Numbered from the stretch's first letter, positions 10,778-62,731 are shown. The stretch: 64,000 bases of DNA from Centroscyllium fabricii (GCA_051313645.2 JBNRSN020000017.1:19840001-19904000), one strand, 5' to 3'. Numbers and translations are program-made. Notes: generated from the letters alone by a model not told the origin.

Positions 10778-11134
10778 CAGGTTGAACACTGTTAATCAGT
10801 TACCCGAAAAGCCGGCAACTTCGAACGTCCAGCAACGATTTCCCCGACTGCCCGGCGCATGCGCAAATGGCCGCTGCGATTCATGCTTTGGCGAATGATC
10901 TGCGCTGCCGAACGGCGAGCGCATGCGCAGACCATTCAAAACTTCCGCTGGCCATTTTGAATGATCTGCACATGCGCTTACCGTTCGGCGGCGCACGCAC
11001 AGATCATTCAAAATTTCGCGCCGGCCATTTTGAATGCTGTGCGCATGCGCCGCCGTGGCTTCAATCATTCGGCGTTTTCAACAATCCGGTCGGGTGCTGG
11101 TCCCGACCCTGCCGGATTAACGGTGTTCAACCTG
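10778..11134. mobile_element. Tigger/pogo-like MITE, family copy A
   Basis: TA|caggttgaacactgttaatc ... gattaacggtgttcaacctg|TA; gcgcatgcgc-rich interior. Confidence 0.85.
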
Positions 11135-11570
11135 TATTTACTTTTCTCAAAATTAATATCGCTTACAGCCAGTAATCACTGCACTGTAACTACTTTTAGT
11201 AGATAATTACACATACATGAATACACCTATTTGTATCTTATAAAATAATTAACTTTAGATTCATTTTAAAGAGAATGCCATTCATTCTAAAAAATCATTT
11301 TTATTATACCATAAAAACCGATGGTTATCAACACCAAGCAGAATCCAATATTTAAACTGGCATCATTATGCTACTTGAATAACTCCTGGTCATTGTTTGA
11401 CATTCATGTGTCTCTGAAGTCAAGGGAGCACATTTCTCAGCTGCACTCAATTAGAATATTTTTTGGCTCCACACACTGCAATATAATAAAAGGCATTTCC
11501 AGATGGCAACCTTATCTCGGTGTACCGTTTCAGTACCAAAAGAGTTTTTTTTATTTTTTTTAAAGTAAAC

Positions 11571-11700
11571 TACTGCAGATGCCAGAATTCTAGAAACAAA
11601 TACAGAAACGGCTGGAAATACTGAGCAGGTCAGGCAGCGTCGGTGGAGAAACAGATGCCAGGCAGTCAGCATTTCAGGTCCAACGACCCTTACACAGAAG
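11571..11700 (-). mobile_element. Penelope-like terminal-repeat fragment with a degenerate hammerhead core
   Basis: gctggaaatactgagcaggtcaggcagc is the reverse of the 21021 fragment; minus strand reads ctgtgtaagggtcgttggacctgaaatgc. Confidence 0.6.
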
Positions 11701-11715
11701 GAAGGCTCTTGTTAA

Positions 11716-11883
11716 AGGGTGGGATATGTGTCTGTGCAGGTTCGGTAGGGATCGAGGGATATGGGGACAAGGCAGGGACGGGGTACTGGGTTTGGATGAT
11801 CAGCCATGATCTCATTGAATGGCAGAGCAGGCTCGAAGGGCCGAATGGCCTTCTCCTGCTCCTATCTTCTATGTCTATGTCTA
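11716..11883 (+). mobile_element. HE1-type SINE, 3' fragment
   Basis: Matches the 3' half and tail of the 2834 and 63684 copies. Confidence 0.85.
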
Positions 11884-13222
11884 AATTCCCACAACTTGCA
11901 GATTCTCTTTTTTTGTCATTCCTTATTAGAGATAGTCTGACAGGACAAATCCAGTTGAGCCGACACATCGCATTATCCTCATCAAATAACTAACCCATTC
12001 TGTATTGCAAGTATGATCTGAAAGTTGCATAGCTACCAATGCATTTAAAATTCCTTTTCCTTTCTACATACCCAGAACCAACCATGGGCAAAGGTACACT
12101 TTTTTTCCCCATTTGAGAAATCTGAAAGTAGGGAGGCTAAGACAATTCTATAGCGGAGTAATATCTGTGATATGAACCCACCTACAGGGGACTTTCCTGA
12201 CCTCAGTATTAAAAATGCACTCATTTAACAAGCTCCTCTACAGTGCACCATTGTCACCAATTTCATTCAAGTCTATGTGAATGCCTCAGAATAATTCAAA
12301 TCAGTTGCTGCAGTTGTCAACCAAACCACTAACTGGGGCATCATCTGCTCCCCAGAAATGGGAAAGGAAATATTGGGTCATGGACGAGAACTTCTACTAA
12401 CCAATTCCCAACAGTTAACCTGTCAAGAGCCAAGCTGCAGTCGCAGTCTCCTAGCTGCAAGATAATGGGATAAAGGCTAGTAGTAGCTTATTAAGGAGGA
12501 AATGGAAGAGAATAAGGGAATCAATACATAAACAATTCAATAAACAGAATGTTAGGTGCTTGAGTATAACGTTGATTTGCATTTAATGAAGATAGGTACT
12601 GCAATAGTGTCGAAACTAAAGACTAAATTACTCCTTTCTCGTGGTCAGTGACTAAGAAACCAGCAGCATTTTGCTTACCTTGACATATAGAGATTGGTAT
12701 TCATTCAGTTTAAAATGGCAGTGTGCTTACAACTGTCAGTTGCAATACAGAAATTACCCCAACAGCATTTCACAATTTTCCTTTTATATAGGTGCAATAC
12801 CACTTGTCAGGCTTTCAGAAGCACCGACAATATGGGATTACTAAAGGAGAGTTAGTCTGTAATTAGCTTAATTATATGAACGTTTGCATCAACAACAAAA
12901 ATAAATTGTCAGGCCCATAAGAGGTGCTCTTGTTTCTATCTGATCAGAGATCCAGCATATCCTCTAGGAGTAACTCCCAATTGTTTGGAAAAAACCTGCG
13001 ACCAATTTCAGGGGAAAAAATCCTCTTGGGGAAACTGATCCATAAGGAGATCAAACAAGCGCCGGAAGACCCCGTTTCTCATTATGTGCTCGACAAACCT
13101 ATCCAACTCATAGCCCCTCTCCCTCGCCACCTCACCGATATGCCATCGAGTGAGTGGGAAGTGGGAAGAGGCAGAGGAATTCCCTGCAAACTTTATCACC
13201 TAGTCAGCAAGATGTTCATATT

Positions 13223-13617
13223 AAACATAGAAACATAGAAGATAGGAGCACGAGTAGGCCATTCGGCCCTTCGAGCCCGCTCCGCCATTCAATGAGATCA
13301 TGGCTGATCATCCAAACCCAGCACCCCGCCCCTGCCCTCCCCCATATCCCTATCAAGCCTGCACCGACACATATCCCACCCTATCCCCGTAACCCCACAT
13401 ATTCAATCCCCCTAACACTAAGGGTCAATTTATCCTGGCCAATCAACCTAACCCACACATCTTTGGACTGTGGGAGGAAACCGGAGCACCCGGAGGAAAC
13501 CCACGCAGACACGGGGAGAATGTGCAAACTCCACACAGATAGTCACCCGAGGCTGGATTTGAACCCGGGTCTCCAGAGCTGTGAGGCAACAGTGCTAACC
13601 ACTGTGCCACCATGCCG
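13223..13617 (-). mobile_element. HE1-type V-SINE
   Basis: Reverse complement of the 2834 copy. Confidence 0.9.
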
Positions 13618-14003
13618 TGAAGCAGATATGATTCATAAAGTCAGTTCCCCCCCCCGCCCCCAGTAACAATGCTGCACTCGCACAAGTAGTCGTGTAGTTG
13701 AAAACTAGTAAAACCAATTTGGACGATAGCAGGCAGAACAGGGCAGCCCTCGAGCTGAGAAGCCAACTGGGCATGATATTATTTCCTGTCACATAGCTCT
13801 AAAAACAAAAGTATAATTAGATAAACCGAGCAGCAGAGTAAAAGAACACTCAAAATGCACCTTTATACTGCTCTCTAATTTTATTCATGGATAAAAATAG
13901 ATTAAAATATCCAGCTTTTAAAACAAAAATGTTTTTAAACAGTTTCAAATACACTAAATAGACTTTGAGGGTCTAAATCATTGAGAAAATCATCAATACT
14001 TAC

Positions 14004-14255
14004 AGAACCGTGACCCATTCCACCTCCACCAACAAAAGGTGCAAGTTCTGGTGGTACGGGTAGAGGTTTAGCACCAGGAATGGGGTCCGATATGATCATC
14101 CCAGATTTGGTGGCAGCAACGGGTTCAGAGATGAGGGTTCCTCCACTGCCTGCAGACATCTGCTGCACCAATGACATTGCACGGTCAGGAATCCTGGATG
14201 GGTCGCTACAAGACTGTTGCCAGCCAGGAAGCTTTTGTGTTACCATATCCTTGCC
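14004..14255 (-). CDS. BAIAP2: BAIAP2 exon (exon 8 orthologue) with CRIB-PR motif: GKDMVTQKLPGWQQSCSDPSRIP...IISDPIPGAKPLPVPPELAPFVGGGGMGHGS
   Basis: 252 bp, ttacag acceptor, gtaagt donor; ORF 13935..14246; ISDPIPGAKPLPVPPELAPF is diagnostic of IRSp53 rather than BAIAP2L1/L2. Confidence 0.96.
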
Positions 14256-14504
14256 CTGTAAAAGAAAAACAATTGAGTGGTTACTTCAGATGAATCTAGA
14301 GACTAGAACACTTCAAGGGTCTTCATTTAATCAATTTTGGAGAGGACAAGATGGCCTCTTTCCGTGCTGTAAATTTCTATGATTCCATGACAAAAATCTA
14401 AAAAAAAGGTGAATACCATGAATATTAAAAATTGAGCAAAATTGGCTGAGAAAAAAAAGTAAAATTTAAATCCGATAGAAGGAGCTATTCCATTCAAATA
14501 CAAT

Positions 14505-16286
14505 GGGCGAAACATTCATGAGCGCACGATTTGGGGCGCTAAAATGGGCGCAGCGCTAAAATGGGCGCCGGAGCTTCCGAAACTGGGTTTTGCGCCGGCC
14601 TTGCAGATTTCAGCGCTAAATCTAGCGTTGCACGGGATGGCCAATTTCATGGCGCTAATTGGCGATTGCAGGTGCAGCGCTCATTCAGCAACTCCCTGCC
14701 TTCCCATGAACTCTGGAGCCGGACAGGTCTTAAAGGGGGTAGGGGAAGCAGTGCATGATGTGTCGGCTCCCCTCCCTCAGCATCTCCCCGATCTCGGGCC
14801 GACCCCCCTCCCTCATCATCGCCCCGATCTCGGGCTGACCCCCCTCCCTCAGCATCTCCCCGATCTCGGGCTGACCCCACTCCCTCAGCATCTCCCTGAT
14901 CTCGGGCCGACCCCCCTCCCTCAGCATCTCCCCGATCTCGGGCTGACCCGCCTCCCTCAGCATCTCCCTGATCTCGGGCTGACCCGCCTCCCTCAGCATC
15001 TCCCCGATCTCGGGCTGACCCCCCTCCCTCATCATCGCCCCGATCTCGGGCTGACCTGCCTCCCTCAGCATCTCCCTGATCTCGGGCCGACCCCCCTCCC
15101 TCAGCATCTCCCCGATCTCGGGCTGACCCCCCCTCCCTCAGCACCTGCCCGATCTCGGGCTGACCCCCTCCCTCATCATCGCCCCGATCTCGGGCCGACC
15201 CCCCTCCCTCATCATCGCCCCGATCTCGGGCTGACCCCCCTCCCTCATCATCGCCCCGATCTCGGGCCGACCCCCCTCCCTCAGCATCGCCCCGATCTCG
15301 GGCCGACCCCCCTCCCTCATCATCTCCCCGATCTCGGGCTGACCCCCCTCCATCAGCATCGCCCCGATCTCGGGCCGACCCCCCTCCCTCATCATCGCCC
15401 CGATCTCGGGCTGACCCCCCTCCCTCAGCATCTCCCCGATCTCGGGCTGACCCCCCTCCCTCAGCATCTCCCCGATCTCGGGCTGACCCCCCTCCCTCAG
15501 CATCTCCCCGATCTCGGGCTGACCCCCCTCCCTCAGCATCTCCCCGATCTCGGGCTGACCCCCCCTCCCTCAGCATCTCCCCGATCTTGGGCTGACCCCC
15601 CTCCCTCAGCACCTGCCCGATCTCGGGCTGACCCCCCTCCCTCAGCACCTGCCCGATCTCGGGCTGACCCCCCTCCCTCAGCATCTCCCCGATCTTGGGC
15701 TGACCCCCCCTCCCTCAGCATCTGTCCGATCTCGGGCCGACCCCCCTCCCTCAGCATCTCCCTGATCTCGGGCCGACCCCCCCTCCCTCAGCACCTGCCC
15801 GATCTCGGGCTGACCCCCTCCCTCAGCATCTCCCTGATCTCGGGCCGACCCCCCCTCCCTCAGCACCTGCCCGATCTTGGGCTGACCCCCCCTCCCTCAG
15901 CATCTGTCCGATCTCGGGCCGATCCCCCTCCCTCAGCATCTCCCCGATCTCGGGCTGACCCCCTCCCTCAGCATCTCCCCGATCTCGGGCTGACCCCCCT
16001 CCCTCAGCACCTGCCCGATCTTGGGCCGACCCCACTCCCTCAGAAGCGCTTGCCAAAGCTGGCGCGAGCAGCGTTACGCCAAGGGGACTGGCGCAAAGGC
16101 GAATTTCGGGCGCAGCCGTTGCACCCGGATATGAACGAGGATTGGCGATCGCAAATTAGCGCGCGCTAACATTTAGCGCCGGCGCTGTTCGGGTGGCGAA
16201 TTTAGCACCCGGCGCTAAATTTTCTGCATTCGGCGCAAAACCCGCCTGCGCCCATTTTCCGGCACTAAGGCGCCAATTTTCCGCCC
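14505..16286. mobile_element. PIF/Harbinger-like MITE carrying an internal minisatellite
   Basis: aat|gggcgaaacatt ... aattttccgccc|aat (3-bp TSD); agcgcc-rich subterminal regions shared with 45271-45981. Confidence 0.75.
14769..16043. repeat. 36-bp GC-rich minisatellite, ~35 copies (cccctccctcagcatctccccgatctcgggctgacc)
   Basis: Direct tandem units; source of the spurious PLPQHLPDLGLT ORF repeats. Confidence 0.95.
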
Positions 16287-16563
16287 AATGTTTCTGCAAA
16301 ATTTGATAGCCTTAATTTCCCACCGCCTCTCTCGATGTATAGTCATGGCAACTGACTCTGTACAGTGCTTCGCAGCCACAGAGTCAGCTGAATGATCTCC
16401 AATGGCCTGAGTACTTAAGAGACTTGCAGCTTTGAAGATGCTAGCCCTTTTTATACAAAGTGCACAAAGCAGATGTGCTGTAAACTTACCGAATTGCTAA
16501 GGCAATTTCAGTCAACATGCCAAATCTATTCATACAAACAAATAAAACACAGTTCCACTAATA

Positions 16564-16893
16564 CAGGAAACTCTCGATTTACCAGCACCTAAATAACCAG
16601 AAATCTCTATTAACCAGCAAAATTCAGGAGTAGGTTCAGATAAGTTTTACTTCATATTAGTGGCCGTTCCTCGATCTGTGGCTGTGCAACCAGGATTCCT
16701 GCACCTGTTGCTATGCAACAGGGACGCCTGGATCTGTGACCGGGGTTCCTGCACCTGTTGCTATGCAACAGGGAACCCTGGATTTGTGGTTGTGTACGGG
16801 GCTCTCGTACCTTTTACTATACCTCTCGGTTATCCGGACTTTTTGATAAACTGGCACCACGCCAGTGCCAGATTTAAAAAAAAGCGTTTCCTG
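16564..16893. mobile_element. Tigger-like MITE (different family)
   Basis: TA|caggaaactct ... agcgtttcctg|TA; internal 50-bp duplication (16696/16746). Confidence 0.7.
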
Positions 16894-17719
16894 TAGTTTG
16901 TTAAACAAAATTGTTCTTTACTATATATTTGTGTTGCTGAATATCCTTTGCATTCTTTAATGCAACTTTAATGCAGTTAAGAGTCAACCACATTGCTGTG
17001 AGTCACACATAGGTCAGACCGAGTAAGGACGGCAGATTTCCTTCCCTAAAGAACATTAGTGAAGCAGATGGGCTCTTACAACAATCCAGTAGCTACATTA
17101 ACTTTTTTATTTAATTAACTGATTTTAAATTCCCCAGCTGCCATGGTGGGATTTGAACGCGCGATCATTAGTCCAGGCCTCTGGATTACTGATCCAATAA
17201 CATAACCACTATGCTGTTCCCTGTAATTGGCCTCTGCAATCTGGATTGTGAAAACAGCCAAGGCCCTTGCTCCGAATCATTGTCCAATAAACTCACGCAG
17301 ATAGCGCATGTGTATGCGATCAGGTGAGGACTGAATCAGATTTGGCTGCGATACCCTTCAGGCTCAAGTATCCTGCTGACACTCACTGCCAGGGTGCCTG
17401 TATAAACATTTGCCACTTGAGTGAAATAGTGGAGGGCTGGCTCCCACAGAACTGTATGCCTTCAGAAGAAGCAAGGGCAATGAGGAAATTGGCAAAGAAA
17501 AAAGCAAATGTACTATACATTCAGCAACATAGGAAAGGAAGCTAATGAAAAGAAACAGAGTCACATTTTTCTTCAGGATATCCAATACAAAAATCTACTG
17601 TGGTGTTATTCACCTGATATGGGCGCGTACGACTGCAACTAAAACAGCTCACAATTATTTATGAGGCATCAACCTTTTAATATCAAGGTAACGTTAAACA
17701 TTATAACTGGAACATTGTG

Positions 17720-18020
17720 TGGTACTGAGCAATACAGATCAGGAAGAATCCAAATTTGAACCTTGGTCTCTGCTCAGCTAGCTGATCTCATCCAGGATGA
17801 CAGTAGGACATTACAATTGTCCTCGGCTTTCCCAAGCTCAAAAGAGGAAACATAAATAACCATGGGTTCTTGCTCCCAATTGCAGGAAAGATCTGAATGA
17901 GTGGGCATCGCTGGAGGACAGAATCGCACCCTGAGTTTATATGAAGAATGGTCAATTGAGTGAGCTAATAATTGAGTGGCATCTGTGGGACAAATTACCA
18001 CCTTTAGTTGAGGAGGAGAG
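17720..18020 (+). mobile_element. Ancient LF-SINE-like relic
   Basis: ggtactgagcaatacagatcaggaag...gctagctgatctca...acaattgtcctc resembles the LF-SINE consensus from memory; similar pieces at ~17222-17450, ~25915-26100, ~39290-39470, ~62250-62330. Confidence 0.55.
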
Positions 18021-18142
18021 AAACATGAAATAAATAAATATTAACACTTACCTGTTTCGTTATTCCTCTCTGAACATTTTTGAAAATCTGCAATGTTGTG
18101 GTTTAGATTTACTTAATTTGAAAGGATTAGCAAATTACTTAC

Positions 18143-18295
18143 CCTGCTGTGGTACACCATGTTATTCTTGGCAACTGCACACTGCCTTTCCACCAGAAAG
18201 CAGTACCGCCTACGTTCCTCACTCAGTGCAGTTTTGAAACCGGTTCCAACGTAGGTCTCCAGATCAGCCTGCTTTTTGCTTATCGTCTCCACATA
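18143..18295 (-). CDS. BAIAP2: BAIAP2 exon (exon 7 orthologue): YVETISKKQADLETYVGTGFKTALSEERRRYCFLVERQCAVAKNNMVYHSR
   Basis: 153 bp, phase 0/0, ctgcag acceptor, gtaagt donor; conserved ALxEERRRxCFLVE I-BAR motif. Confidence 0.97.
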
Positions 18296-18787
18296 CTGCA
18301 GAAATTAGGGGGGGGAGGAGAAAAAATAAAATAAAAACATTTAGGAAATGAACAAACTGTAGATTCCCAATCTGAAATATAAACTAAAATTTGTGATTAC
18401 TCAGTATAAAGTCAGATCCGCATTTTTGACCGAAGATCACATTCAAACCATATAATCTTATGTAAAGTGGTAATATAATAATGGTGAATTAATGATCGTG
18501 GTTTAATAAGATCACTTGCATGGGTATATTTACCCAGTGTGACCTCACAATATACAAGGTACTTTATGTCAACAGGCTAAATGGCAACTGTAGCTATCGC
18601 TAGGAATGGCTTTTATACATGTAATTTCCCAAGAGGGGTTTTTATGACAGTCCAACAGTTCTCGCGGCAATTTTATTTCTGGTGCTGGGTCACTAATTAT
18701 TAGATTTATTGAATTCAATTCACAGTTTAAATTCACAACTTCTGGATTGTTAGCATAGCGTGCATATTTCTCTACAGAATTGCAATA

Positions 18788-19226
18788 CAGGTCCGGCACC
18801 GTTAATCCGGATGGCGGTAATACGCTAACTTCAGTCGTCCGGAACGAATCTGGCCGACTGGTCTGCGCATGCGCGAAACGGCCGCCGCGCTTGGTTGCGC
18901 GTGCCCAGCCCTCTCCCCGACTGCCAGACTGGTCTGCGCATGCACAAAATGGCCGCCGCGCTTGGCTGCGCGTGCCCGGGCCTCTCCCCGACTGCCAGAC
19001 TGGTCTGCGCATGCACAAAATGGGCGCCGCGCTTGGCTGCGCGTGCCCGGGCCTCCCCGAACGATTGATGCTTCGGCAAGCGCATGCGCAGACCATTCAA
19101 AGTTGTTCGCTGTGGCCATTTTGAATAGTTTGCGCATGCGCTCGCCGAAGCTTCAATTGTTTGGAGTTTTCACTTGTCCGGCACCGGCCTGGTCCCGCCC
19201 GTGCCGGATTGACGGTGTCGGACCTG
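18788..19226. mobile_element. Tigger/pogo-like MITE, family copy B (71-bp internal repeat x~3)
   Basis: TA|caggtccggcaccgttaatccgg ... ccggattgacggtgtcggacctg|TA; units start at 18858, 18929, 19000. Confidence 0.9.
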
Positions 19227-20287
19227 TACTGCCTAAAACATTTGGTTGAAGACTAATAAACTCAGTAAAAAGGACGAGCCAATCCTTTATGATTACGCCT
19301 CTTCCTGAAAAATGTACTAAATTATAGCACAAATTACCAGTCATTCTCCTGCCACTGTTAGTTGCACAGCACTCGTCAAACTTTTGTCACAGATTGTATA
19401 CTGTCAAAATAAGGCAATGCACCTATACCCAAGATGTACTACAAAATATTTGCTAAAACACAAACATTAAAAAAAGTAATGAGAAAATGGGATTTGTGAC
19501 CAGTTTGCACTACAGTAGCAAAAAGTTAAATTTTTAATAAATCAAAGTTATTAAAACAAATGATCACTGTAATGCTTCACGAGGTACCACATAGGCATGC
19601 TGGAACTGGCTATTTGTTCTACTCATTCATGGACACGCTCTCATTAATGTGGGAGTGTGAATACATAGCCTAATTGAGAAACAGGAGTGGCAACATTGTG
19701 TTGAAAGTAATATAATATCTTTAATAAAGGTAAAAAGTTAAGTAAACTTTAATAAAGCATTCCTAACCCTCCCTCCAACACAAGCCGATTAAGCATTGGC
19801 ACTTCAAACATGCTGTTCAACGGAATTAATGCTCCAATCATGTGAGGAGATAATTGCAAAGAAATCAGGGAGGTACTCCCTGGGCGCGCCTCAAATGCCT
19901 GCTACTTCTGGACCCACAAAAATAAGAACTGAAAATATGCTGTGCCTTTTACAAAGGGGCCGCCAGCAGCCTTTTAAAGGATAGCTGGTTAGGCCACTCA
20001 ATGCCTGGTACAACTAGATGGAGCATGCGTGGCGCAAGCACCGTCTGTATGTACCCAAATTTCCCATTCAGGGTCCAATAATTGACATACAAGGTCTGAT
20101 TTATATTAAGGAGCCTAATGCACATTTCAGGCAGGTGCACCGGATAACTACAAGTCACCCAAGCCAATATGGTGCCTGCCGCAATTCTGGCATGACAGAT
20201 CATGCCGTGCAATTCGGAGGTTTATCACCGATTTTACACTGGAAAAACGGGTGACCGTGATCTGAATTTCTCCTCCAACTTACTTAC

Positions 20288-20420
20288 TTGGGGTGGACAA
20301 ATGTAAGAAGTCACACAAACACCAGGTTATAGTCCACTTCACCTGACGAAGGGGCAGACGCTCCGAAAGCTTGTGATTTCAAATAAAACTGTTGGACTAT
20401 AACCTGGTGTTGTGCGACTT
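20288..20420. mobile_element. Penelope-like fragment in inverted (fold-back) arrangement
   Basis: aagtcacacaaacaccaggttatagtcca is the reverse complement of tggactataacctggtgttgtgcgactt; homologous to 25010-25085, 29744-29872 and 36191-36397. Confidence 0.75.
20339..20376 (+). ncRNA. Minimal type I hammerhead ribozyme (Penelope-associated)
   Basis: tcac-CTGACGA-a-ggggc(agac)gctcc-GAAA-gc-TT-gtga: stem I tcac/gtga, stem II, palindromic mini stem III (aagctt). Confidence 0.65.
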
Positions 20421-21020
20421 GTTGCATTATTTACTGCCAGTTGTGGTTTGATGGTTATAACATTCAATAGGCGTGAAAATTGAAGTTTTTGAAATAGAGA
20501 ACGCCAATAACTGGCTTGATCTTGTATGCTAACTTTTAACATTCTCATAAGATTTATCAAACTAAACTGATTAAATTCTTGCAATTGATGAATATGATCC
20601 TAATTCTTGCAATTGATGAATACGATCCTCTAAATTAACAGAGCTGACCTCAGCTTAACTGCACAACTCCATTAGGTTCTTCATCAGTTACTTGACTTAA
20701 GATCCTCAAGTAAAATGTTCACCAAAATTACTGTCTATATTAATGCTTCACTCTATGCTTTCGATCATGGTTCTTGAAATATAGAGACCAAGCTTCTTGT
20801 AATAGTTTAAAGGGTAATGAAATGCAATTGTCAAATCCAATTAAAAGTACCGAATTCTATTTTACAGACTTTATATTCAAATTATAAAAATAAAGGTACA
20901 TTGAATGAGGGTGTATGAAGCTAGGCATAATTTGTCTATTTATTGACCAAAAAGTATTTATATATGAGTGGCAAAGGAAAAATTACTTTAATATGCATAA
21001 TATATTAGATATAATATATT

Positions 21021-21126
21021 ATTAGTTTTGATGAAAGGTCATTGACCTAAAACGTTAACTCAGTTTCTCTTTCTCCACAGATGCTACCTGACCTGCTGAG
21101 TATTTCCAGCATTTTCTGTTTTTATT
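21021..21126 (+). mobile_element. Penelope-like terminal fragment with a mutated hammerhead core
   Basis: agtt-TTGATGA-a-aggtc(att)gacct-AAAA-cg-TT-aact; flanked by direct repeat tataatatatt (21010-21020, 21127-21137). Confidence 0.65.
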
Positions 21127-21827
21127 TATAATATATTGGATGTTTAGTTGTTTATTAAAACAGCTACTCCATGGATCGAGCAATTTCTGTTGGAATAAGT
21201 TGCACAAAGGCTGGGGCGTCAACAGTTGGCTGGCTTGAGGCCAAATATGAATCTTAAGAGTTTTGAATAAAAATGAATTGAATCGCACACAAAAAAAAAG
21301 CTTTGCTTTGGCGCAATGCCAACTAACTTTGCATAAAAGCAACAATTAAAGCTTTCAGAAGGTCAAGGAAGGAAAGGAGAGCAGTTAAGATTTACGAGTC
21401 TAAGAACAATATCTTCTCACATCCGAGAGCTAAATCTAAAACTAGTCCCATACTGCAGAAAAAATATAATTATCTTTCTTTGCTGGCTTCAAAGTGAAGT
21501 AAAATTGAAAAGTCTAAATCCAGTTTACTAGAAAATGTGTACAGTCTATAAAACTACCAAAATATAGTAGAAATTAACAGGAAAAAGAAATCCCACTTAG
21601 TATCCACTAGGATGGATGATATGAGAAATAACATTAACACCAGTATAGCAGGTACTGACTGACTAAAGAGAAAAGTTAGTGTGCATCTAACCATGCTCTA
21701 CACAACATGGGACTGTTCAATACCAATAGTGACATGTCAAAAGTATAACTGTTCCATTCTCCAATACAGACCACTAACTTTAGCGATCACATGACTACAA
21801 GAGGGGGGGAAAAAAGGCTGAAGATAT

Positions 21828-22891
21828 AGACGCATAATTTGCAGTCAGTGGTGATGCGATGGCGATCGTCGCTGACCTCGAAGAAAACTGCCCACAGAGA
21901 TCTTGCAATTTAGGTTTCTCGACGTGTAATTGATTGCAGCACTGTCAATAGGTGATTCCTAGCACAATTCAGCAGTGACAACAACAAGCTGTTTAAGCAG
22001 CCAATCACATGAAAGAATTCTCAGGCAAACCAGGAAATGAAAAGCACCGATTATCTGCGCTTGTTAAAAATGTTAGAGTGAAATAAAGATTGGGACATAC
22101 ACATGGGGTTAAGGTAGAAGCTGAAATATCATGAAAAAACTTTAAAAAAAAATTAAAATCATAATTAAGAAATTTGACATTCCGCAAATATAAAAATGAG
22201 TTATTCAGGGTCAGAGCTGTTGTTCAGCAGTTAATACACTGCTAAAACCCCAGTTACACCTATTCCAACAAGGCTCATCATTTAATGGGGGTGTTTAACA
22301 GCAATATTAGCGCGTAAAACGAAACTTTCCGTCAGTTCCGCTGATTGCCGGACTATAGGCGGCAGGGGGGGTCCACAACGCAGCGTGTCGGAGCAGCGAT
22401 TTCCGCATTTAGATGCGCACGCGTTAAATCCTTAAGTTATGGTAAGTTTTGGAGGGGTAATAGAAACATAGAAGATAGGAGCAGGAGTAGGCCATTTGGC
22501 CCTTCGAGCCTGCTCCGCCATTCAATGAGATCATGGCTGATCATCCAAACCCAGTACCCTGTCCCTGCCTTGTCCCCATATCCCTATCGAGCCTGCACCG
22601 ACACATATCCCACCCTATCCCCGTAACCCCACATATTTAATCGCCCTAACACTAAGGGTCAATTTATCCTGGCCAATCAACCTAACCCGCACATCTTTGG
22701 ACTGTGGGAGGAAACCGGAGCACCCGGAGGAAACCCACGCAGACATGGGGAGAATGTGCAAACTCCACACAGATAGTACCCGAGGCTGGATTTGAACCCG
22801 GGTCTCTAGTGCTGGAAGGCAACCGTGCTAACCACTATGCCACCGTGCCACCCCACAGTTCGCTGTCATTGACCACCACAAAATCCGGGCC
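21828..22891. mobile_element. Degenerate Harbinger-like MITE with a nested SINE
   Basis: Ends ...cataatttgcagtcagtggtgatgcga / tcgctgtcattgaccaccacaaaatccgggcc are loosely inverted; AT-rich core resembles 40231-40986; boundaries approximate. Confidence 0.45.
22460..22853 (-). mobile_element. HE1-type V-SINE
   Basis: Reverse complement of the 2834 copy. Confidence 0.9.
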
Positions 22892-22942
22892 ATTATTTCC
22901 TTTATTGAAAGGTATTAAAGTATGACCACAGAGTAACTAGAG

Positions 22943-23075
22943 CATAAGAACTAGGAGCAGGAGTCGGCCATGTGGCCCCTCGAGCCTGCTCCGCCATTCA
23001 ACAAGATCATGGCTGATCTGATCTTGGCCTCAGTTCCACTTCCCTGCCCGCTCCCCATAACCCTCGACTCCCTTA
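22943..23075 (-). mobile_element. CR1/HER1 3' tail fragment
   Basis: cataagaactaggagcaggagtcggccat...cctgctccgccattcaa...tcatggctgatc, same tail as the 24257 copy. Confidence 0.75.
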
Positions 23076-24256
23076 CGCGATTAAAGTCAGCGCTGTATTA
23101 AAATAGAGTAGAGAAGAAAAAGCCAACACTACTCTATTCTTGGTTAAGATTAATATTTACCAAAGGAGGATTGGCAAGACAAAATAATTCCTTTGAAATG
23201 TCATTAATGCATGAAAGTAAACTCATTTTAATCAAAGTACGTCACCACAATAGTACATCCCTCAGTCCTGAACGGTGGAGGAAGGATTATGACTTAGAAA
23301 TATGTAGCTAAATTGAGGCCTCCAAGAGATTAAGTTTATTTGGGATTTGGCAGTGAACAAAAGCAAGCTGTGGATTTAGATTTAAAACCAAAGTGTTTTC
23401 CTGATGTTAATTAAAGTGCTTTTGCTTTCAGCGATCAAAGACTAATCTGGCTATGATCAAAGACGTACCTCAAGTTCTTACTCATGTTTCAAAAAAAATA
23501 GTTGAGCAAGTCATCAGCTTTGAAGCCAATCAAGGTAGGCTTGGGAATCAGGAGCTGAAACAGTTAAATAGTGGAAGGGTCGAATGAAGCCGCACCCTGC
23601 ACACACACAATGCTCCAGAATGGATTCACAAGGAAGCTGGGCATAACCACAGAGAGAAGCTATCAACAGAAACAGGTTATGCAAACAAGTATTGAATGAA
23701 GATATTTGCAATCATCAGCACCGTGTAATACCCTGACTAAAATATGCCAAAACAAGCCAAGCTCTCATCATGCATGCTCATTTGCACTCATAACAACCCT
23801 ATACATTTGCTCTGAAGGGCACTGCATTTTTACCTTCACAGAAAATTAAGTGGTATTTTATCTTGAAATTTATGTGTTGATCTTCAATTATTGCATGGAA
23901 ATGTCATTTTCCATGACTCACTACTGTATTCCAATACAAATGTGCTGATGATGGGGCTGTTGCCATAGCTACAGGAACTAGGTCATACCAGAAATTCTTT
24001 TCATAGTTGGGAACAGCATTACTTAAGGGGTGAAGCCTGTGGATACTGTGAACAGTTAAACCAAACCCACAGTAACTCCAGGCTGACAATGGTTATACTA
24101 TCAGTTGCTCAACATGCCACAAAAGAAGAGAACAAATAATGTTATTAAAAAAATTATAATATGTTCCTTAAGACACTAGGACTATATCAAACATGCTGCA
24201 CTCATTTTGTGACTCACTGTCCATCAGAGACAGTTACTAAATACTTAGTGTCCATA

Positions 24257-24968
24257 CATAAGAAGTAGAAGCAGGAGTAGGCCACACGGCCCCTCGGGCC
24301 TGCTCCGCCATTCAATAGGATCATGGCTGATCCGAACTTAGACTCATGTCCACTTCCCTGCCCGCTCCCTGTAACCCCTTATTCCCTTATCAGTTAGGAA
24401 ACTGTCTATCTCCGTTTTAAATTTATTTAATGTCGCAGCTTCCACAGCTCTCTGAGGTAGCAAATTCCATAGATTTACTACCCTCTGAGTGAAGAAGTTT
24501 CTCCTCATCTCAGTTTTGAAAGGGCAGCCCCTTACTCTCAGATTATGCCCCCTAGTTCTAGTCTCAGCCATCAGTGGAAACATCCTCACCGCATCCACCC
24601 GATCAAGCCCCCTGTGGTAAACCACTGTATATAGTATATATATGTCTCCCCCTTGTGTCCCCTCCCTGTAACTGTACGTAATGCCTCCTTGCCAGGGAGG
24701 ACTCACCTGGGAGGACTCCGCTTCCCGGCTTCCTCCCCAGGCTCCGCCCACTGGGTATAAAAGTGAGAGCACACCTGAGTGCTCTCACTTTGGCTTGGAA
24801 GATCGTCGGACCTGTGTCCACTTCTATGTGAATAAAAGCCTCGATTACATCTAACCAACGACTGGCGTAATTGATTGTGCATCACCCCCTCACAATCTTA
24901 TATGTTTCGATAAGATCGCCTCTCATTCTTCTGAATTCCAATGAGTAGAGGCCCAATCTACTCAACCT
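24257..24968 (-). mobile_element. CR1 (HER1-like) LINE 3' end interrupted by a solo LTR
   Basis: ORF 24344..24772 ends RTRGHNLRVRG...RRNFFTQRVVNLWN; CR1 sequence resumes after 24889. Confidence 0.9.
24613..24884 (+). mobile_element. Solo LTR (Gypsy-type)
   Basis: TG...CA termini, 5-bp TSD ccccc, TATA (gggtataaaa), aataaa signal; ends shared with the LTR at 60499. Confidence 0.85.
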
Positions 24969-25009
24969 ATACAAAATCTAACATGCCATATTCAAATGTA
25001 AGTTTTATC

Positions 25010-25085
25010 TGTTGGACTATAACCTGGTGTTGTGTGACTTCTGGCATTTGTCCACCCCAGTCCGACAGCGGCACCTCGTCACATT
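25010..25085 (+). mobile_element. Penelope-like terminal fragment
   Basis: ctgttggactataacctggtgttgtgtgacttc...tgtccaccccagtcc matches the 29744 copy. Confidence 0.7.
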
Positions 25086-26096
25086 CAAACCCTGCTCTCA
25101 CTTCATATAAGCAATGATCACCTGCGCTGGTGTAATGCTGCCCCCTCTGCTCTGGAGGATATTCTTTATACTTTAAGATTGTAATTTAATTGTAATATTT
25201 TAGGCCCTTATCTAAACGTTTATGCGTCATTGGATGCCTGGTACCGTAAGGCATTTTGGGTGCAACAGAGGCAGGCAAGTTGGTGGCCAATTCCCTCCTC
25301 CTGCGTAGTCTAATCCCATCGCCTCAGTAACCCCGGGGAGTGGAAGAGAGAGAGAAGCAATTAAAAAAAAAAAATTGTGTAGTCGGCAAGAGCTGCTTTA
25401 ATAAACTTTCTGCAAAACTAAATATGATCTTTCACTGTACTTCTTCAGGTTTTAAATACAGGTTCAGTTAGATGCTATTGGAAAAATCTTAAATACAGTG
25501 TGAAACAATAAAAGTAATCAGTATCATTTCCATTCAGCGTCTGGAGAATTCGCCTGAAAACTGATTGACAAATGATTTTTCAAAACACGATTTTTTACGG
25601 CACTACTATGTTCAATCTAAATTGGTTGCAAAGTTTTATATCCTCAATTGAACCCCGAAAATATAAGAGAATGAGATTACTGCTTCCAGTCTAGAGTTTA
25701 CACTTAAGAGCCCCAATTCCTTAGGTCAGTAAGTGTTGGATGTTTTAAGAAAAATAATGCAGTTTTAAATCATCAGTGTGAATTCCACACTGATCACACA
25801 TCAGAAAAAGTGCAGCTAATAATTATCATACAAATTAACCATATGCAAATCCGTGCTGAGCTGAAGCAGCAATCGGGGCATAATGCCTCGAGACTAGGAA
25901 ATTAAAATAAACCATCAGTGTGTGCGTGGAATCAGGCTTGGCTGTACCGCCCAACACAAACTGAAAAACCTGCTGACACTTGCCGTCAAGTCTCGCACAT
26001 AAAAAAATGACTGCTTAGGTATGGCAAGGCTCTGACCACTCGTGGAACTGTACATCAGCAAGACTCAGCATCTTCAGAGGAGAAAGAATGGAAATT

Positions 26097-26950
26097 GGAG
26101 AGGGGAAGAGGGAGGGAGGGAGAAGAGGGAGGGAGGGGAGAAGAGGGAGGGGGGAGGGAGAAGAGGGAGGGGGGAGGGAGGGAGGGGGAAGAGGGAGTGG
26201 GGAGGNNNNNNNNNNNNNNNNNNNNNNNNNNNNNNNNNNNNNNNNNNNNNNNNNNNNNNNNNNNNNNNNNNNNNNNNNNNNNNNNNNNNNNNNNNNNNNN
26301 NNNNNNNNNNNNNNNNNNNNNNNNNNNNNNNNNNNNNNNNNNNNNNNNNNNNNNNNNNNNNNNNNNNNNNNNNNNNNNNNNNNNNNNNNNNNNNNNNNNN
26401 NNNNNNNNNNNNNNNNNNNNNNNNNNNNNNNNNNNNNNNNNNNNNNAAGAGGGAGGGAAGGGGAAGATGGAGGGAAGGGGAAGATGGAGGGAAGGGGAAG
26501 ATGGAGGGAAGGGGAAGATGGAGGTAGGGGGGAAGAGGGAGGGAAGGGGAAGATGGAGGGAAGGGGAAGATGGAGGGAAGGGGAAGATGGAGGTAGGGGG
26601 AAGAGGGAGGGAAGGGGAAGAGGGAGGGAAGAGGGAGAGAAGGGGAAGGAGGGGGAAGAGCGAGGGAGGGAAGGGGAAGAGGGAGGGAGGGAAGGGGAAG
26701 AGGGAGGGAGGGGGAAGAGGGAGGGAGGGGGAAGAGGGGGGAGGTGGAAGAGGGGGGGAGGTGGAAGAGGGGGGGAGGTGGAAGAGGGGGGGAGGTGGAA
26801 GGGGGGGGAGGTGGAAGAGGGGGGGAGGTGGAAGAGGGGGGGAGGTGGAAGAGGGAGGGAGGGGGAAGAGGGACGGAAGGGGAGAAGAGGGAGGGGAAGG
26901 AGAAGGGAGGTGGAGGAGAAGGGAGGGAGGGGAGGAGGAGGAGGGGGGAG
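26097..26950. repeat. Polypurine (G/A) low-complexity tract spanning an assembly gap
   Basis: ggaggg, gggaaggggaagatgga and ggaggtggaagagggg units; N run at 26206-26446. Confidence 0.95.
26206..26446. other. Assembly gap (241 N)
   Basis: Run of n characters. Confidence 1.
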
Positions 26951-44053: not shown

Positions 44054-44191
44054 CTGCATCTCTTTTTCTCCATATTTCTGTGGCTTCCTGCTCCCATGGC
44101 TCTTCCTTCTAATTTTCTTCAGCTCTGCATGGCACTTTTCCAGTGACTCCAGCCTGGCTTTATGTTCGGCTTGATACTTCTTCAATGTTGC
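44054..44191 (-). CDS. BAIAP2: BAIAP2 exon (exon 6 orthologue): [46 protein letters not shown]
   Basis: 138 bp, phase 0/0, ctttag acceptor, gtatgg donor; contains the I-BAR basic cluster (ELKKIRRKS). Confidence 0.96.
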
Positions 44192-47066: not shown

Positions 47067-47228
47067 TATTAGATTACAAGCTTGTAATCAGTTCATGCCA
47101 TCTTTTTATTTTGCATTTGAAAACATACCTTTTTTTTTTACTGTAATATTACATGTTAAAAAGTGAACTGAAAGATTGAGTTTATTCATCAAATGGTGTG
47201 ACAGCACAGAATTCAGTCTGAAACTTAC

Positions 47229-47300
47229 ACTTAAGTACTTGGCATCTAACTCAACCTTCTGCTCCAGTTGCGTAAGCAGCTCACCGTGGAACACTTTCAA
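47229..47300 (-). CDS. BAIAP2: BAIAP2 exon (exon 5 orthologue): LKVFHGELLTQLEQKVELDAKYLS
   Basis: 72 bp, phase 0/0, tttcag acceptor, gtaagt donor; within ORF 47106..47462; matches human LKSFHNELLTQLEQKVELDSRYLS. Confidence 0.97.
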
Positions 47301-49818: not shown

Positions 49819-50388
49819 CAGGTTCGACACCGTTAATCCAGAACGGTCAGGACCAGGCCGGTGCCGGGTTACTGAAAAGTCCAAACGAGTGAAGCTTCAG
49901 CGAGCGCATGCGCGGACCATTTAAAATGGCCACACGCATGCGCAGAACATTCAAAATGGCCGCAGCACGCGCAGACCAGTGCAAGTGGCCGCAGCGCACA
50001 GCACGGGATTGGAGCGCGCGATGGGGACACGCCCCGGAAGGTCGGGTGCGGTTGCAGCCACACTGTCGGGACACACCCCGGAAGGTCAGGCACGGTTGCA
50101 GCCACGCTGTCGGGACCACGCCCCGGAAGGGTGCGCGCAACCGGGCTCCGAGTGCGCATTCGGAAAAGACCCCGGGAGGGAGCCCGGTCCAACACTCCAC
50201 GGGGCTGGAGCATCAGAGACCTTCTCCATTTCAGGTACCCTGTACAGGGTTTTTGCACAAAGCGTGGGAAGCGGCTGCTCAGAACGCTGAAGAGCGCCGC
50301 TGCACATGCGCAGACCAGTCGGGGAGATTCGTGCCGGACAACTGAAGTTGCCGGATTACCGGTTTCCGGATTAACGGTGTCGGACCTG
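49819..50388. mobile_element. Tigger/pogo-like MITE, family copy G (44-bp internal repeat)
   Basis: caggttcgacaccgttaatcc ... ggattaacggtgtcggacctg|TA; units start at 50024, 50068, 50112. Confidence 0.88.
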
Positions 50389-60016: not shown

Positions 60017-60029
60017 CTATACAAGGCTA

Positions 60030-60727: not shown

Positions 60728-60887
60728 CTTAGTTTCTTAGCTATTGCTGTCATCTGAGGCAGAACTTTCACAAGATGGAATGATGCCTGGAATCCACCAT
60801 CACTGGTAAAACAGGACTACAGACAGGTAGCACAAGTGATATTGAAATGAATACATTAGAAGATTTTAGATTTCGATAAACTCAGTA

Positions 60888-61288
60888 CAAGTTGAGCACT
60901 GTTAATCCGGCACCCTCGGGCCCAGGCCGGTGCCGGACCACTGAAAATTCTGAACCACTGAAGGTTCGGGGGGAGCGTGCGGTAGAACACTCCCCGGGGC
61001 CCGCGGGTAGAACACTCCTCGGGGCCCCGAGCGCGCAGTAGAACACTCCCCGGGGCCCGGAGCGGCGGTAGAACACTCCCTAGGAGGGAGCCTGGGGATA
61101 GAACACTTACAAAACCTATAAAAACAGAAACCCAAACGCCCGATGCCTTCGGCACTCGCCCACCCTTCGCCGGAAACAGTGGCGCCGCCAAGCAGCTGCT
61201 CCGCAAAATGAAGACCGCCAGTTTCCAATCGTGCCGGACCACTGAAGGTGCCGGACCAGCGGGTACCAGATTACCGGTGCTCAACCTG
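60888..61288. mobile_element. Tigger/pogo-like MITE, family copy H
   Basis: TA|caagttgagcactgttaatccgg ... ccagattaccggtgctcaacctg|TA; five tagaacact-anchored internal units. Confidence 0.85.
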
Positions 61289-61574
61289 TATTTGTATTGC
61301 AATGTTCTGTATTATATACAGGGAGTATCTGAATCCATTTTTTTAAGTATTATTTTTCAATAAAACACTTTTACTCATCAGGTGAGAAGAACATTTTTTA
61401 ATCCCAGTAAATCCCCAAGTAGAAGACTAGAATCTTGTTAATCTCCCGCTTTATTTCCCCGTTATGGAACATGGAGTCATGCAACAAAATTCAGCAGCAG
61501 TTCAGAGAAAATACATGAGGGGTCTGGGAACAAAAAAGGTACAAAGCGCTAAACTTTGAGGGAGAAATCGAATA

Positions 61575-62025
61575 CATTATGTGACCAACCTTGTGGTCTT
61601 TTTCTGAACTGCTTCCATAGACTGAATGTTTTAGTGACTAGAACTGAATGCAGTATTCAAGGCGCAGACTGATGAGAGCAATGTACAGTGGCAGCAGGAC
61701 AACCTCAGACTTGAACTCGACTGATTTGGCAATATAGCTCAGCATTCGGTTTGCTTTGCTAATGCTGCTCTGCAATGACTCAACATGGTCAGAATTAAGT
61801 CTATCTCTCCCAAATCTCTGAGTCCTTTCCCTTGTTGGTATGCATCATGTCATAAGTATTTCACGTCCCCATTTTTTCTTCCAATATCTAAGACTTTATT
61901 GCCATTGCATGTACTGAATTTCATCCGCCATAGTTCTGCCCTTACAAATAGTATCTAAATTCTTCTGTAATTCTTTGGTTACTTCATTAGAGTCTATTAT
62001 CATCTTAGTCTAGTATTATCTGCGA
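61575..62025 (-). mobile_element. Old degenerate CR1 fragment
   Basis: tgactagaactgaatgcagtattcaagg reads in reverse as LEYCIQF; decayed. Confidence 0.55.
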
Positions 62026-62342
62026 GTCTAACCAACCCAACCACCTTTTAAACCAGCTTTGACATTCAGTTATCCTCCCAGGGGAGTCAAACCCAAAAGC
62101 TGCAAGACTGCCTCCCCCCAGGGGTGTCTCAGCACTTCTTTTTGGAATTGGGGTGGGTCCTAATTCTGGAGGCATACTGACTGTCACCAGGAAATGGAAA
62201 CGGTTTTGTGGTAATGTTAAAGTTGCAGTATAAATGTATACTCAAGAGGCCTATTCTGCAGGAAAGTGCCTGTGTGTGGACAGCTGAGCACAGAATCTGG
62301 CTCAGCTGTGATGCCATCCATGATCAGTACCACACTGCATTG

Positions 62343-62731
62343 CAGGTTGAAGACCGTTTATCCGGTAACCGAAACGCCGGCAGCTTCAGTCGTCTGGCAT
62401 AAATCGCCCCGACAGCCCTGCGCAGGTGCAAAATGGCCGCCGCGATCGAGGCTTCGGCGAATGATCTGCGCATGCGCCGCCGAACGGCGAGCGCATGCGC
62501 AGACCATTCAAAACTTCCGCCGGCCATTTTGAATGATCTGCGCATGCGCTCGCCATTCGGCGGCGCATGCGCAGATCATTCAAAATTTCGCGGCGGCCAT
62601 TTCCAATGTTATGCGCATGCGCGTGGCCATTTTGAATGGTGCGCGCACTGGCCGGCTTCATTCTTCTTTTTTTGTCGCTATACCGGCGCGGACCTGGTCC
62701 CGCCCGTGCCGGTATAACGGTGTTCAACCTG
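62343..62731. mobile_element. Tigger/pogo-like MITE, family copy I
   Basis: caggttgaagaccgtttatccgg ... ccggtataacggtgttcaacctg|TA; five gcgcatgcgc palindromes. Confidence 0.88.

What the first reader, a model, noticed from the sequence alone, without database searches (positions are those of the whole stretch)
10778..62731. Nine-copy TA-flanked MITE family with constant ends and variable CpG-island-like interiors rich in housekeeping-promoter motifs
Seen: copies at 10778, 18788, 35918, 39512, 42724, 46464, 49819, 60888 and 62343 share a ~23-bp TIR (caggttgagcaccgttaatccgg), mostly TA TSDs, and two asymmetric subterminal blocks. Their interiors differ greatly (357-948 bp overall). Eight of nine repeat gcgcatgcgc, usually next to caaaatggccgc; copy C adds CCAAT boxes and copy G adds ccggaag and ccacgcccc. 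CpG is retained against a CpG-poor background even though copies have diverged. Established: TGCGCATGCGCA is the NRF1 site, AAAATGGC the YY1 core, CCGGAAG the ETS/GABP core; CAG...CTG ends with TA TSD are typical of pogo/Tigger. Inference: a mobile CpG-island or promoter cassette that may escape methylation and exchanges or captures interior sequence (Pack-type behaviour).
Basis: partly seen in the sequence, partly recalled or inferred. Interest (0 to 1): 0.75.

Follow-up and report, generated by a model that had tools for sequence, protein, structure and literature searches.

The report
Shark cargo-carrying MITE with edited hairpin
A very abundant miniature jumping element in a shark genome keeps fixed ends but carries different cargo, and one version carries a retrotransposon hairpin in which about half the A's of one strand read G, likely RNA editing written back into DNA, while its CpG richness likely reflects youth rather than promoter function.

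Summary
The nine copies are real: 23-bp TIRs, TA on both sides in 7 of 9, lying within a shark BAIAP2/IRSp53-like gene. This is a very high-copy pogo/Tigger-type MITE; copy C's site is empty in two relatives 4-8% diverged.

The promoter-cassette reading is weak. The 'NRF1/YY1' motifs are one subterminal unit at a fixed distance from each end, multiplied by tandem and fold-back duplication. Other repeats in the window are as CpG-rich, and CpG transitions run about 4-fold above other transitions in the conserved parts (a wider test shows little excess).

The capture reading holds. Four copies are built only from shared modules; five carry 117-511 bp of cargo. This includes a piece of another MITE family (E) and a 75-bp piece that is single or low copy in relatives (C).

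Unexpectedly, C carries a Penelope-like hairpin with 23 of 49 minus-strand A's changed to G. Arm-specific changes are 15 to 0 in that direction, with none in the unpaired tail and ADAR-like neighbour bias. This version is multicopy DNA. The likely route is an ADAR-hyperedited RNA, reverse-transcribed into a founder MITE, then amplified by transposition. No transposase partner or methylation data were reachable.

The parts
10778..11134 (+). MITE copy A, only shared modules (73-bp fold-back unit x1.9)
18788..19226 (+). MITE copy B, CAGGTCCG TIR variant at both ends, 71-bp unit x2.8
35918..36865 (+). MITE copy C, identical TIRs, 511 bp cargo; site empty in organisms D and E
36189..36397 (-). Penelope-like pLTR plus inverted pLTR hairpin (85 pairs) with ~35-nt unpaired tail, carrying clustered A-to-G changes on the minus strand; multicopy in organism A
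36424..36569 (+). C-rich 31-bp tandem repeat inside C's cargo
36598..36672 (.). 75-bp captured piece, 91-92% like one single- or low-copy contig in each of two relatives, highly amplified in organism A
   Evidence: tables 2 and 8
39512..39876 (+). MITE copy D, only shared modules, closest to B
42724..43119 (-). MITE copy E; 31-bp unit x3.7; cargo 42925-43041 about 70% like 40789-40889 inside another inverted-repeat element
46464..47066 (-). MITE copy F; unidentified cargo 46621-46836
49819..50388 (-). MITE copy G; cargo 49999-50265 with 44-bp tandem repeat that supplies the CCGGAAG motifs
60888..61288 (-). MITE copy H; no decamer; cargo 60982-61226 with 31-bp tandem repeat
62343..62731 (+). 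MITE copy I, only shared modules (72-bp fold-back unit x2.3)
20289..20426 (+). Unedited hairpin copy of the same Penelope-like repeat with a minimal hammerhead motif (about 20339-20375); internal control
4418..47300 (-). Host gene, BAIAP2/IRSp53-like: candidate exons 47229-47300, 44054-44191, 18143-18295, 14004-14255, 6183-6384, 4418-4619; A-F lie between these exons, G-I upstream of the first one found (inferred intronic)

Best explanation
The nine elements are short TA-flanked repeats with shared 23-bp inverted ends and variable cargo, likely a young, very high-copy pogo/Tigger-type MITE family moved in trans by an unidentified transposase, and one subfamily carries a Penelope-like hairpin whose one-strand A-to-G changes likely come from ADAR editing of an RNA that was reverse-transcribed into a founder copy. 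Steps: (1) Shown: the ends, including subterminal CCGG-type repeats and one GCGCATGCGC unit per end, are constant. Inferred: they are what the transposase needs, so CpG-rich master sequences keep being recopied. (2) Shown: interiors vary by tandem and fold-back duplication of 30-31-bp and 71-73-bp units. Inferred: slippage and template switching during gap repair. (3) Shown: five copies hold cargo, from another transposon (E), a single- or low-copy locus (C) and a Penelope-like insertion (C), and C's cargo is multicopy. Inferred: capture or nested insertion in a founder, then amplification. (4) Inferred: copies are methylated and lose CpG after insertion; they look like CpG islands because they are young and the masters are CpG-rich. 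(5) The ADAR origin of the hairpin changes is inferred from pattern only (about 0.65 on its own).
For: TIRs, TA flanks and orientation. Hundreds of contigs leave the element with unrelated AT-rich flanks just outside the TA dinucleotides (276 before 35916 and 1127 behind 36867 in X1; 267 and 1086 in X2). Summed depth over the ends is 1e6-4e6 against 3-5 in the flank (not a copy number). One contig each in organisms D and E skips 35910-36864, with flanks 3.7-7.7% different. No transposase domain in the 150 longest of 190 candidate frames. Module map. Cargo. CpG transitions 11/228 vs 6/504, p=0.006; elephant shark transposons are hypermethylated (PMC5437953, passages). Hairpin: 16 arm mismatches give G-U pairs on the minus strand and 0 on the plus. 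23/49 minus-strand A changed; arm-specific A>G 15 vs 0 opposite, p=6e-5; 0/6 in the unpaired tail, p=0.035. Changed A by 5' neighbour: A 11/18, T 3/6, C 4/13, G 1/7 (A/T vs C/G p=0.035), matching 5' U~A>C>G and the 50-60% ceiling in PMC3113232 (passages). The control hairpin at 20289-20426 shows 1 vs 1. Depth over 36260-36421 is about 1e5 in organism A and 0-500 in D and E. Only 5-6 C>T places are listed on the whole stretch, and gapped contigs cross the hairpin's right junction at depth about 1e4.
Against: No autonomous element was found (empty; no genome held), and no TIR in the two pogo/Tigger tables searched matches beyond the CAGGT end. Only copy C was dated. Ends are only 73-76% alike between copies and TIR pairs differ at 20 of 207 positions, more than C's age implies, so some copies may be older or the masters evolve fast. 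In the wider end alignment CpG transitions are 25/270 against 28/450 (other C/G) and 44/567 (A/T), a weak excess. The positive test is small, leaves out TIR positions 6-9, counts B's tandem duplicates and is conditioned on at most one mismatch. Hairpin ancestry rests on 2-4 window copies per column. Eight A/T-to-G/C changes are present in both arms and need an extra step (arm-to-arm repair or an earlier round). No pre-insertion form of C's subfamily was among the 15 of 75 joints shown. One organism A sample may be the assembly source.
Confidence: 0.72

Rival explanations
1. One reading: the family is a mobile, unmethylated CpG-island or housekeeping-promoter cassette kept open by NRF1/YY1/ETS binding.
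For: All nine meet sequence criteria for a CpG island (357-948 bp, GC 0.56-0.63, o/e 0.86-1.46). The full palindromic TGCGCATGCGCA occurs at 6 sites in 4 copies. The CpG excess in the wider end alignment is small. MITEs have been linked to open chromatin in Xenopus (PMC12676858, abstract). Motif names are recalled, not tested.
Against: Four-fold CpG transition excess in the most conserved parts. Motif number is set by duplication of one unit. H lacks the motifs. Similar CpG levels occur in unrelated repeats nearby. Copies lie inside a gene. About one copy per 7 kb here makes general promoter activity costly (inference).
Confidence: 0.12
2. The A-to-G cluster in C's hairpin arose at DNA level, by an error-prone polymerase (pol eta or iota type) or ADAR acting on an RNA:DNA hybrid during gap repair across the hairpin, with no RNA intermediate being copied.
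For: A 5' A/T neighbour bias is also expected of pol eta (recalled). DNA transposons are rebuilt by gap filling (PMC8277862, abstract and passages). Two further T>C differences between C and the family majority lie outside the hairpin (36103, 36704), and one subfamily-wide T>C against relatives (36644).
Against: 47% of A changed is far above polymerase error rates (recalled). Changes stop at the duplex edge (0/6 in the tail). The MITE's own short hairpins show no such cluster (A 4 vs 2, B 2 vs 6, C 1 vs 0, D 4 vs 0, I 4 vs 1). Strand-biased clusters were rare in DNA transposons in an 80-genome screen (PMC4866542, passages).
Confidence: 0.15
3. GC-biased gene conversion or long residence in a GC-rich locus produced the G/C-rich hairpin before capture.
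For: Eight changes shared by both arms are all A/T to G/C. The neighbouring cargo is very C-rich.
Against: Gene conversion is strand-symmetric, but arm-specific changes are 15 to 0. Almost all are transitions. The tail is unchanged.
Confidence: 0.07
4. The G/C letters in the hairpin are an assembly or sequencing artefact of a strong palindrome.
For: Hairpins and poly-C tracts are hard to sequence. The window has an N gap. No listed contig spans the whole element.
Against: Contigs of two samples cover the hairpin at depth 6e4-1e5 with only 5-6 C>T places on the whole 1611-bp stretch, where about 23 would be needed.
Confidence: 0.03

Closest known systems
pogo superfamily (Tigger, pogoR) and their non-autonomous derivatives; PMC7386202, PMC9219625
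   Same: TA target duplication, TIR of 23 bp (Tigger in cartilaginous fish 18-23 bp), CAGGT end motif listed for Tigger, pogoR, Lemi and Fot-like elements. Likeness of the TIR start to mammalian Tigger4/Zombi is recalled, not tested.
   Different: No listed TIR matches beyond the first bases. The three shark Tiggers seen in the table begin CAGTA. No transposase here.
Multicopy Pack-TIRs (Tan et al. 2021, PMC8277862) and plant Pack-MULEs
   Same: TIR element carrying captured sequence that is amplified by further transposition; tendency to GC-rich cargo.
   Different: That screen required more than 100 bp with a unique non-transposon parent and found four multicopy cases in 100 genomes; the word shark does not occur in its main text. 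Here the host-like piece is 75 bp, much cargo is transposon-derived, and amplification is far larger.
Tandem-repeat-containing MITEs (clam DTC84, PMC3879986; Xenopus T2-MITEs, PMC6004289; search listing only)
   Same: Constant ends with a variable number of internal repeat units.
   Different: Units here are GC-rich fold-back palindromes and are mixed with foreign cargo.
Penelope-like element pLTR with inverted pLTR, tail and minimal hammerhead (PMC4209133, PMC3846280)
   Same: Inverted repeat with an unpaired tail of about 35 nt on one arm (31-bp tail in the paper). Hammerhead core with bulged base, G-C closing pair, 4-bp helix I and palindromic core in the copy at 20339.
   Different: In copy C the motif is broken by the A-to-G changes, and the piece now travels inside a DNA transposon.
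APOBEC-edited LTR retrotransposons fixed in vertebrate genomes (PMC4866542)
   Same: Strand-biased clustered changes made during a retroelement's cycle and inherited in the germline.
   Different: G-to-A on cDNA of LTR elements there; A-to-G confined to an RNA duplex of a Penelope-like element here, then amplified by a DNA transposon. ADAR is not mentioned in that paper's main text.

Membership tests
pogo/Tigger-type MITE | TA target-site duplication | tested here: met
   7 of 9 TA..TA; loose ends start just outside the TA in hundreds of contigs. The empty site in relatives has 21 other letters, so it does not show a single TA cleanly.
pogo/Tigger-type MITE | Short TIR (<=40 bp) with CAG end | tested here: met
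   23 bp, CAGGT end; compared with tables
pogo/Tigger-type MITE | Small, non-coding, high copy | tested here: met
   357-948 bp; no Pfam hit in frames over the copies; 7% of the window; more than 1000 distinct right-hand flanks
pogo/Tigger-type MITE | Autonomous partner with same TIRs and a CENP-B_N/HTH_Tnp_Tc5/DDE_1 transposase | not testable with these tools
   No genome held; TIR scans of three mostly prokaryotic or viral collections empty
Pack-TIR (Tan et al. 2021) | Captured interior >100 bp with a unique parental locus free of transposons, >=90% identity | tested here: inconclusive
   C piece is 75 bp at 91-92% to single- or low-copy contigs of relatives; parent in organism A not seen; E cargo is transposon-derived; F, G, H cargo has no source in the window
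Pack-TIR (Tan et al. 2021) | Cargo amplified by later transposition (multicopy class) | tested here: met
   Depth 4-6e5 over 36584-36691 and about 1e5 over the hairpin against 5.27 single copy in X1; gapped contigs across the 36394-36398 junction. Shown for C only.
CpG island / promoter | >200 bp, GC >0.5, CpG o/e >0.6 (criteria recalled) | tested here: met
   9 of 9
CpG island / promoter | No excess CpG decay (germline unmethylated) | tested here: not met
   11/228 vs 6/504, p=0.006; weaker in the wider alignment, 25/270 vs 28/450
CpG island / promoter | Unmethylated, open, initiates transcription, binds NRF1/YY1 | not testable with these tools
   No bisulfite, ATAC, CAGE or binding data available
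Penelope-like element (insert in C) | Minimal hammerhead motif in the pLTR | tested here: met
   Copy at 20339-20375 against features in PMC4209133; Rfam hammerhead models do not score it
Penelope-like element (insert in C) | pLTR with adjacent inverted pLTR and tail | tested here: met
   PMC3846280 passages
Penelope-like element (insert in C) | RT plus GIY-YIG open reading frame | not testable with these tools
   Only terminal fragments are in the window
ADAR hyper-edited duplex | A-to-G on one strand in both arms, confined to the duplex, up to 50-60% of A, 5' neighbour U~A>C>G | tested here: met
   against PMC3113232; small numbers
ADAR hyper-edited duplex | Unedited DNA source with inosine in its RNA | not testable with these tools
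   Donor locus not identified

The most novel reading that the evidence does not exclude
Germline ADAR hyper-editing is a heritable mutagen. An edited Penelope hairpin RNA was written into a DNA transposon, which copied the edited, more GC- and CpG-rich sequence to many thousands of loci. Much of the GC-rich, CpG-rich interior of hairpin-forming shark MITEs would be built by repeated rounds of this route together with Pack-type capture of host fragments on a very large scale.
Probability: 0.2. Interest if true: 0.85.

Novelty: new variant of a known kind. Interest (0 to 1): 0.52.

Why it matters
The MITE family itself is ordinary in kind. Two things lift it. First, multicopy capture by DNA transposons was reported as rare in animals (four cases in 100 genomes, PMC8277862); here five of nine copies in 64 kb carry cargo and the one subfamily tested is heavily amplified. 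Second, copy C holds what looks like an ADAR hyper-editing event frozen in DNA and multiplied, the A-to-G counterpart of APOBEC-edited retroelements. It raises GC from 0.42-0.47 to about 0.59 and CpG from 3-4 to 5-8 per arm. Because the edited version is multicopy, the founder state can be reconstructed, which makes the question of whether RNA editing feeds back into germline DNA directly testable with a genome and germline RNA. Two full-text searches listed no paper on such a case and two none on this family; subscription journals, Dfam and Repbase were not searched.

Tried and rejected
No whole genome was held. TIR scans of viral, prokaryotic genome and metagenome collections gave 0 matches, which is uninformative for a shark element. 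Rfam over the window found nothing at gathering score; E-value scans gave only sub-threshold, mostly generic hairpin matches. ARAGORN found no tRNA. A Pfam scan of the 150 longest of 190 candidate frames found no transposase. Run search: no RNA holder listed, which is no evidence on expression; 4 of 20 listed runs were laid, on copy C only.

Capture from the copies' own neighbourhood: the cargo of C (36598-36677), F, G and H scores no better against the masked window than shuffles (21-30 vs 24-30); only E does (56 vs 23-26). The idea that the A-to-G cluster arose in place in the host gene's transcript was dropped: the strand matches the gene's sense strand, but the edited version is multicopy and an unedited hairpin of the same repeat sits in the same intron. 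A general one-strand bias in the MITE's own hairpins was not found. Full-text search for the TIR start returned only primer matches. Six look-ups in earlier findings returned nothing. The coral CMITE paper (PMC2872659, abstract) describes the opposite pattern (conserved interior) and was set aside.
Full report
Observation. Eighteen TIR matches pair up into elements of 357-948 bp. Fourteen are within 3 mismatches of the 23-mer, against none in 100 shuffles. TA flanks both sides in 7 of 9, and the exceptions are CA..TA and TG..TA. Left and right subterminal blocks differ, which orients A, B, C, D, I plus and E, F, G, H minus. The copies make up 4468 bp, 7% of the window.

Setting. Pfam finds IMD and SH3 pieces on the minus strand. 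A splice-site scan gives six candidate exons between 47300 and 4418. One matches human IRSp53 residues 167-217, and another has its best named relatives among sharks, at 85-91%. So the host is a shark and the window lies in a BAIAP2-like gene. Copies A-F are between exons. G-I lie upstream of the first exon found and are inferred to be intronic, because the start of the IMD domain was not found in the window. The window is crowded with SINEs, LINE pieces, satellites and other inverted-repeat elements.

Mobility and abundance. I laid 4 of 20 listed runs on copy C with its flanks. In two samples of organism A the summed contig depth is 3-5 in the flank and 1e6-4e6 over the element ends. Unrelated AT-rich loose ends start just outside the TA on each side (276 and 1127 contigs in X1). 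The tool warns that summed depth is no copy number; I take only 'very many', with more than 1000 distinct right-hand flanks. In organisms D and E one contig each skips 35910-36864. Their flanks differ by 3.7-7.7%, and depth over most MITE-proper bins is zero. Copy C therefore inserted after these lineages split, and C-like ends are rare in them. The empty site has 21 other letters at the joint, so it does not display a lone TA. Only C was dated. Other copies have up to 4 TIR mismatches and may be older.

Classification. TA duplication, a 23-bp TIR and a CAGGT end fit the pogo superfamily (PMC9219625, passages and supplement rows; PMC7386202, passages and supplement rows). No listed TIR matches further in, and no transposase was reachable. 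'pogo/Tigger-type MITE' is therefore a structural assignment.

What varies inside. The GCGCATGCGC decamer is not free interior. It sits at position 78 from the left end in 7 of 9 copies and at 85-86 from the right end in 7 of 9. Extra copies come from tandem repeats of a 30-31-bp unit (E, F, G) or a 71-73-bp unit (A, B, I). A, B, D and I consist wholly of sequence shared with other copies. C, E, F, G and H have 511, 117, 244, 267 and 245 unique bases. G's ETS-like motifs come from a 44-bp tandem repeat. Two of C's CCAAT-type boxes overlap letters where most family contigs read T. The names NRF1, YY1 and ETS for these motifs are recalled and untested.

Cargo. E's cargo is about 70% like 40789-40889, inside a different inverted-repeat element (E 5e-10; score 56 vs 23-26 shuffled). 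In C, 36598-36672 matches exactly one listed contig in each relative over the same 75 bp, with 6 and 7 differences. Their depths are 30 (single copy about 18) and 5.78 (single copy 5.66), while organism A has depth 4-6e5 there. This is a single- or low-copy sequence captured and amplified, though it could be a relic of the family's own ancestor. F, G and H cargo has no source in the window, no Pfam hit and no Rfam hit. This works like the multicopy Pack-TIRs of PMC8277862 (abstract, passages, methods section), but does not meet that paper's 100-bp unique-parent rule as far as tested.

CpG. All nine copies meet sequence criteria for CpG islands, pooled o/e 1.07 against 0.47 elsewhere. But 7 of 14 other CpG-rich blocks that I picked by eye reach 0.81-1.03, and masking all 14 lowers the background to 0.37. 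In the TIR core and the decamer, CpG transitions are 11 of 228 sites against 6 of 504 (p=0.006). This test omits TIR positions 6-9, counts B's duplicates and allows one mismatch per decamer. In the wider end alignment, where subfamily differences dominate, the excess is slight: 25/270 against 28/450 and 44/567. The local SINE gives 9/193 against 19/1035. Transposons are hypermethylated in elephant shark (PMC5437953, passages). The simplest reading is CpG-rich masters, young copies and ordinary decay. Escape from methylation is not supported, but it was not measured.

The edited hairpin. 36189-36397 in C is a different repeat, present three more times in the window. The copy at 20339 has a minimal hammerhead of the kind described for Penelope pLTRs (PMC4209133, first part of the text and passages; PMC6155905, passages). 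C's insert has the pLTR, inverted pLTR and tail layout of PMC3846280 (passages). The arms of C's hairpin disagree at 18 of 85 pairs. Sixteen of these give G-U pairs on the minus strand and none on the plus, so the minus strand folds at -159.8 and the plus at -115.6 kcal/mol. Against the outside copies, 23 of 49 minus-strand A are G. Fifteen such changes are arm-specific, with none of the opposite sense, and 8 are mirrored in both arms. The unpaired tail has 0 of 6. Changed A by 5' neighbour: A 11/18, T 3/6, C 4/13, G 1/7 (A/T vs C/G p=0.035). PMC3113232 (passages) gives 50-60% editing of long duplexes and 5' U~A>C>G. The same repeat's hairpin at 20289-20426 is unbiased (1 vs 1). The changed version is real multicopy DNA: depth is about 1e5 in organism A and 0-500 in relatives, only 5-6 C>T places are listed on the whole stretch, and gapped contigs cross its right junction.

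Mechanism. Shown: constant ends, modular interior, cargo, recent insertion of C, and amplification of C's cargo including the one-strand A-to-G pattern. Inferred: trans mobilisation by a pogo-type transposase; gap-repair slippage and template switching; read-through transcription of a genomic Penelope hairpin, ADAR editing, reverse transcription into a founder MITE and partial arm-to-arm repair for the 8 mirrored sites; methylation of the inserted copies. An error-prone polymerase is the main rival for the cluster; GC-biased conversion fails on strand asymmetry.

Novelty. The family is a new member of a known kind with Pack-like behaviour. The edited hairpin riding a DNA transposon is the unusual part. 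The nearest precedent I read is APOBEC G-to-A editing fixed in LTR elements (PMC4866542, passages). Searches listed nothing on this family or on such a case. The library lacks most subscription journals, and Dfam and Repbase could not be consulted, so the family may already have a library name. It rests on one founder event reconstructed from few copies. Overall interest 0.52.

Noticed in passing
window 4418-47300, minus strand: BAIAP2/IRSp53-like gene, six candidate exons; best named relatives are shark proteins at 85-91%.
   Followed up: partly
window 20289-20426, 25009-25084, 29750-29875: Three more Penelope-like terminal fragments; the first is an unedited hairpin with an intact-looking minimal hammerhead.
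   Followed up: yes
window about 16564-16893: A second TA-flanked CAGG...CCTG element, AT-richer, with a 50-bp tandem repeat and weak likeness to this family's right end (E 0.007); likely an older related MITE.
   Followed up: partly
window 40230-40986, 45270-45985, 14500-16290: Other CpG-rich elements (o/e 0.78-1.01), the first two with GGGC-type inverted ends; 14769-16043 is a 36-bp x35 tandem array inside the third.
   Followed up: partly
window about 3794-4150: Element starting CAGGGGTCCCCAAC with a matching inverted right end and C-rich internal repeats; hAT-like by recalled end motif.
   Followed up: no
window 48384-49210, 52621-53439, 54833-55125, 59017-59760 and 29924-30684, 37081-37905: Two further interspersed families of about 800 bp; the first also carries AAAATGGC twice per copy, so that motif is not specific to the family studied.
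   Followed up: partly
window 31927-34850: Satellite of 30/17/47-bp units with a higher-order duplication of about 1.16-1.2 kb.
   Followed up: no
window about 60020-60500: CpG-rich stretch whose plus-strand frame resembles the end of an LTR-retrotransposon integrase (recalled likeness; no Pfam hit).
   Followed up: no
window about 26200-26440: Assembly gap within a GA-rich tandem array; the window holds 241 N.
   Followed up: no
window 35909-35917: Relatives have 21 letters where organism A has 8 next to copy C's left end, suggesting a small deletion at or near the insertion site.
   Followed up: no
copies F, G, H cargo: Splice-donor-like and acceptor-like strings in the cargo; in F and H they read in the host gene's sense and could act as cryptic sites.
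   Followed up: no
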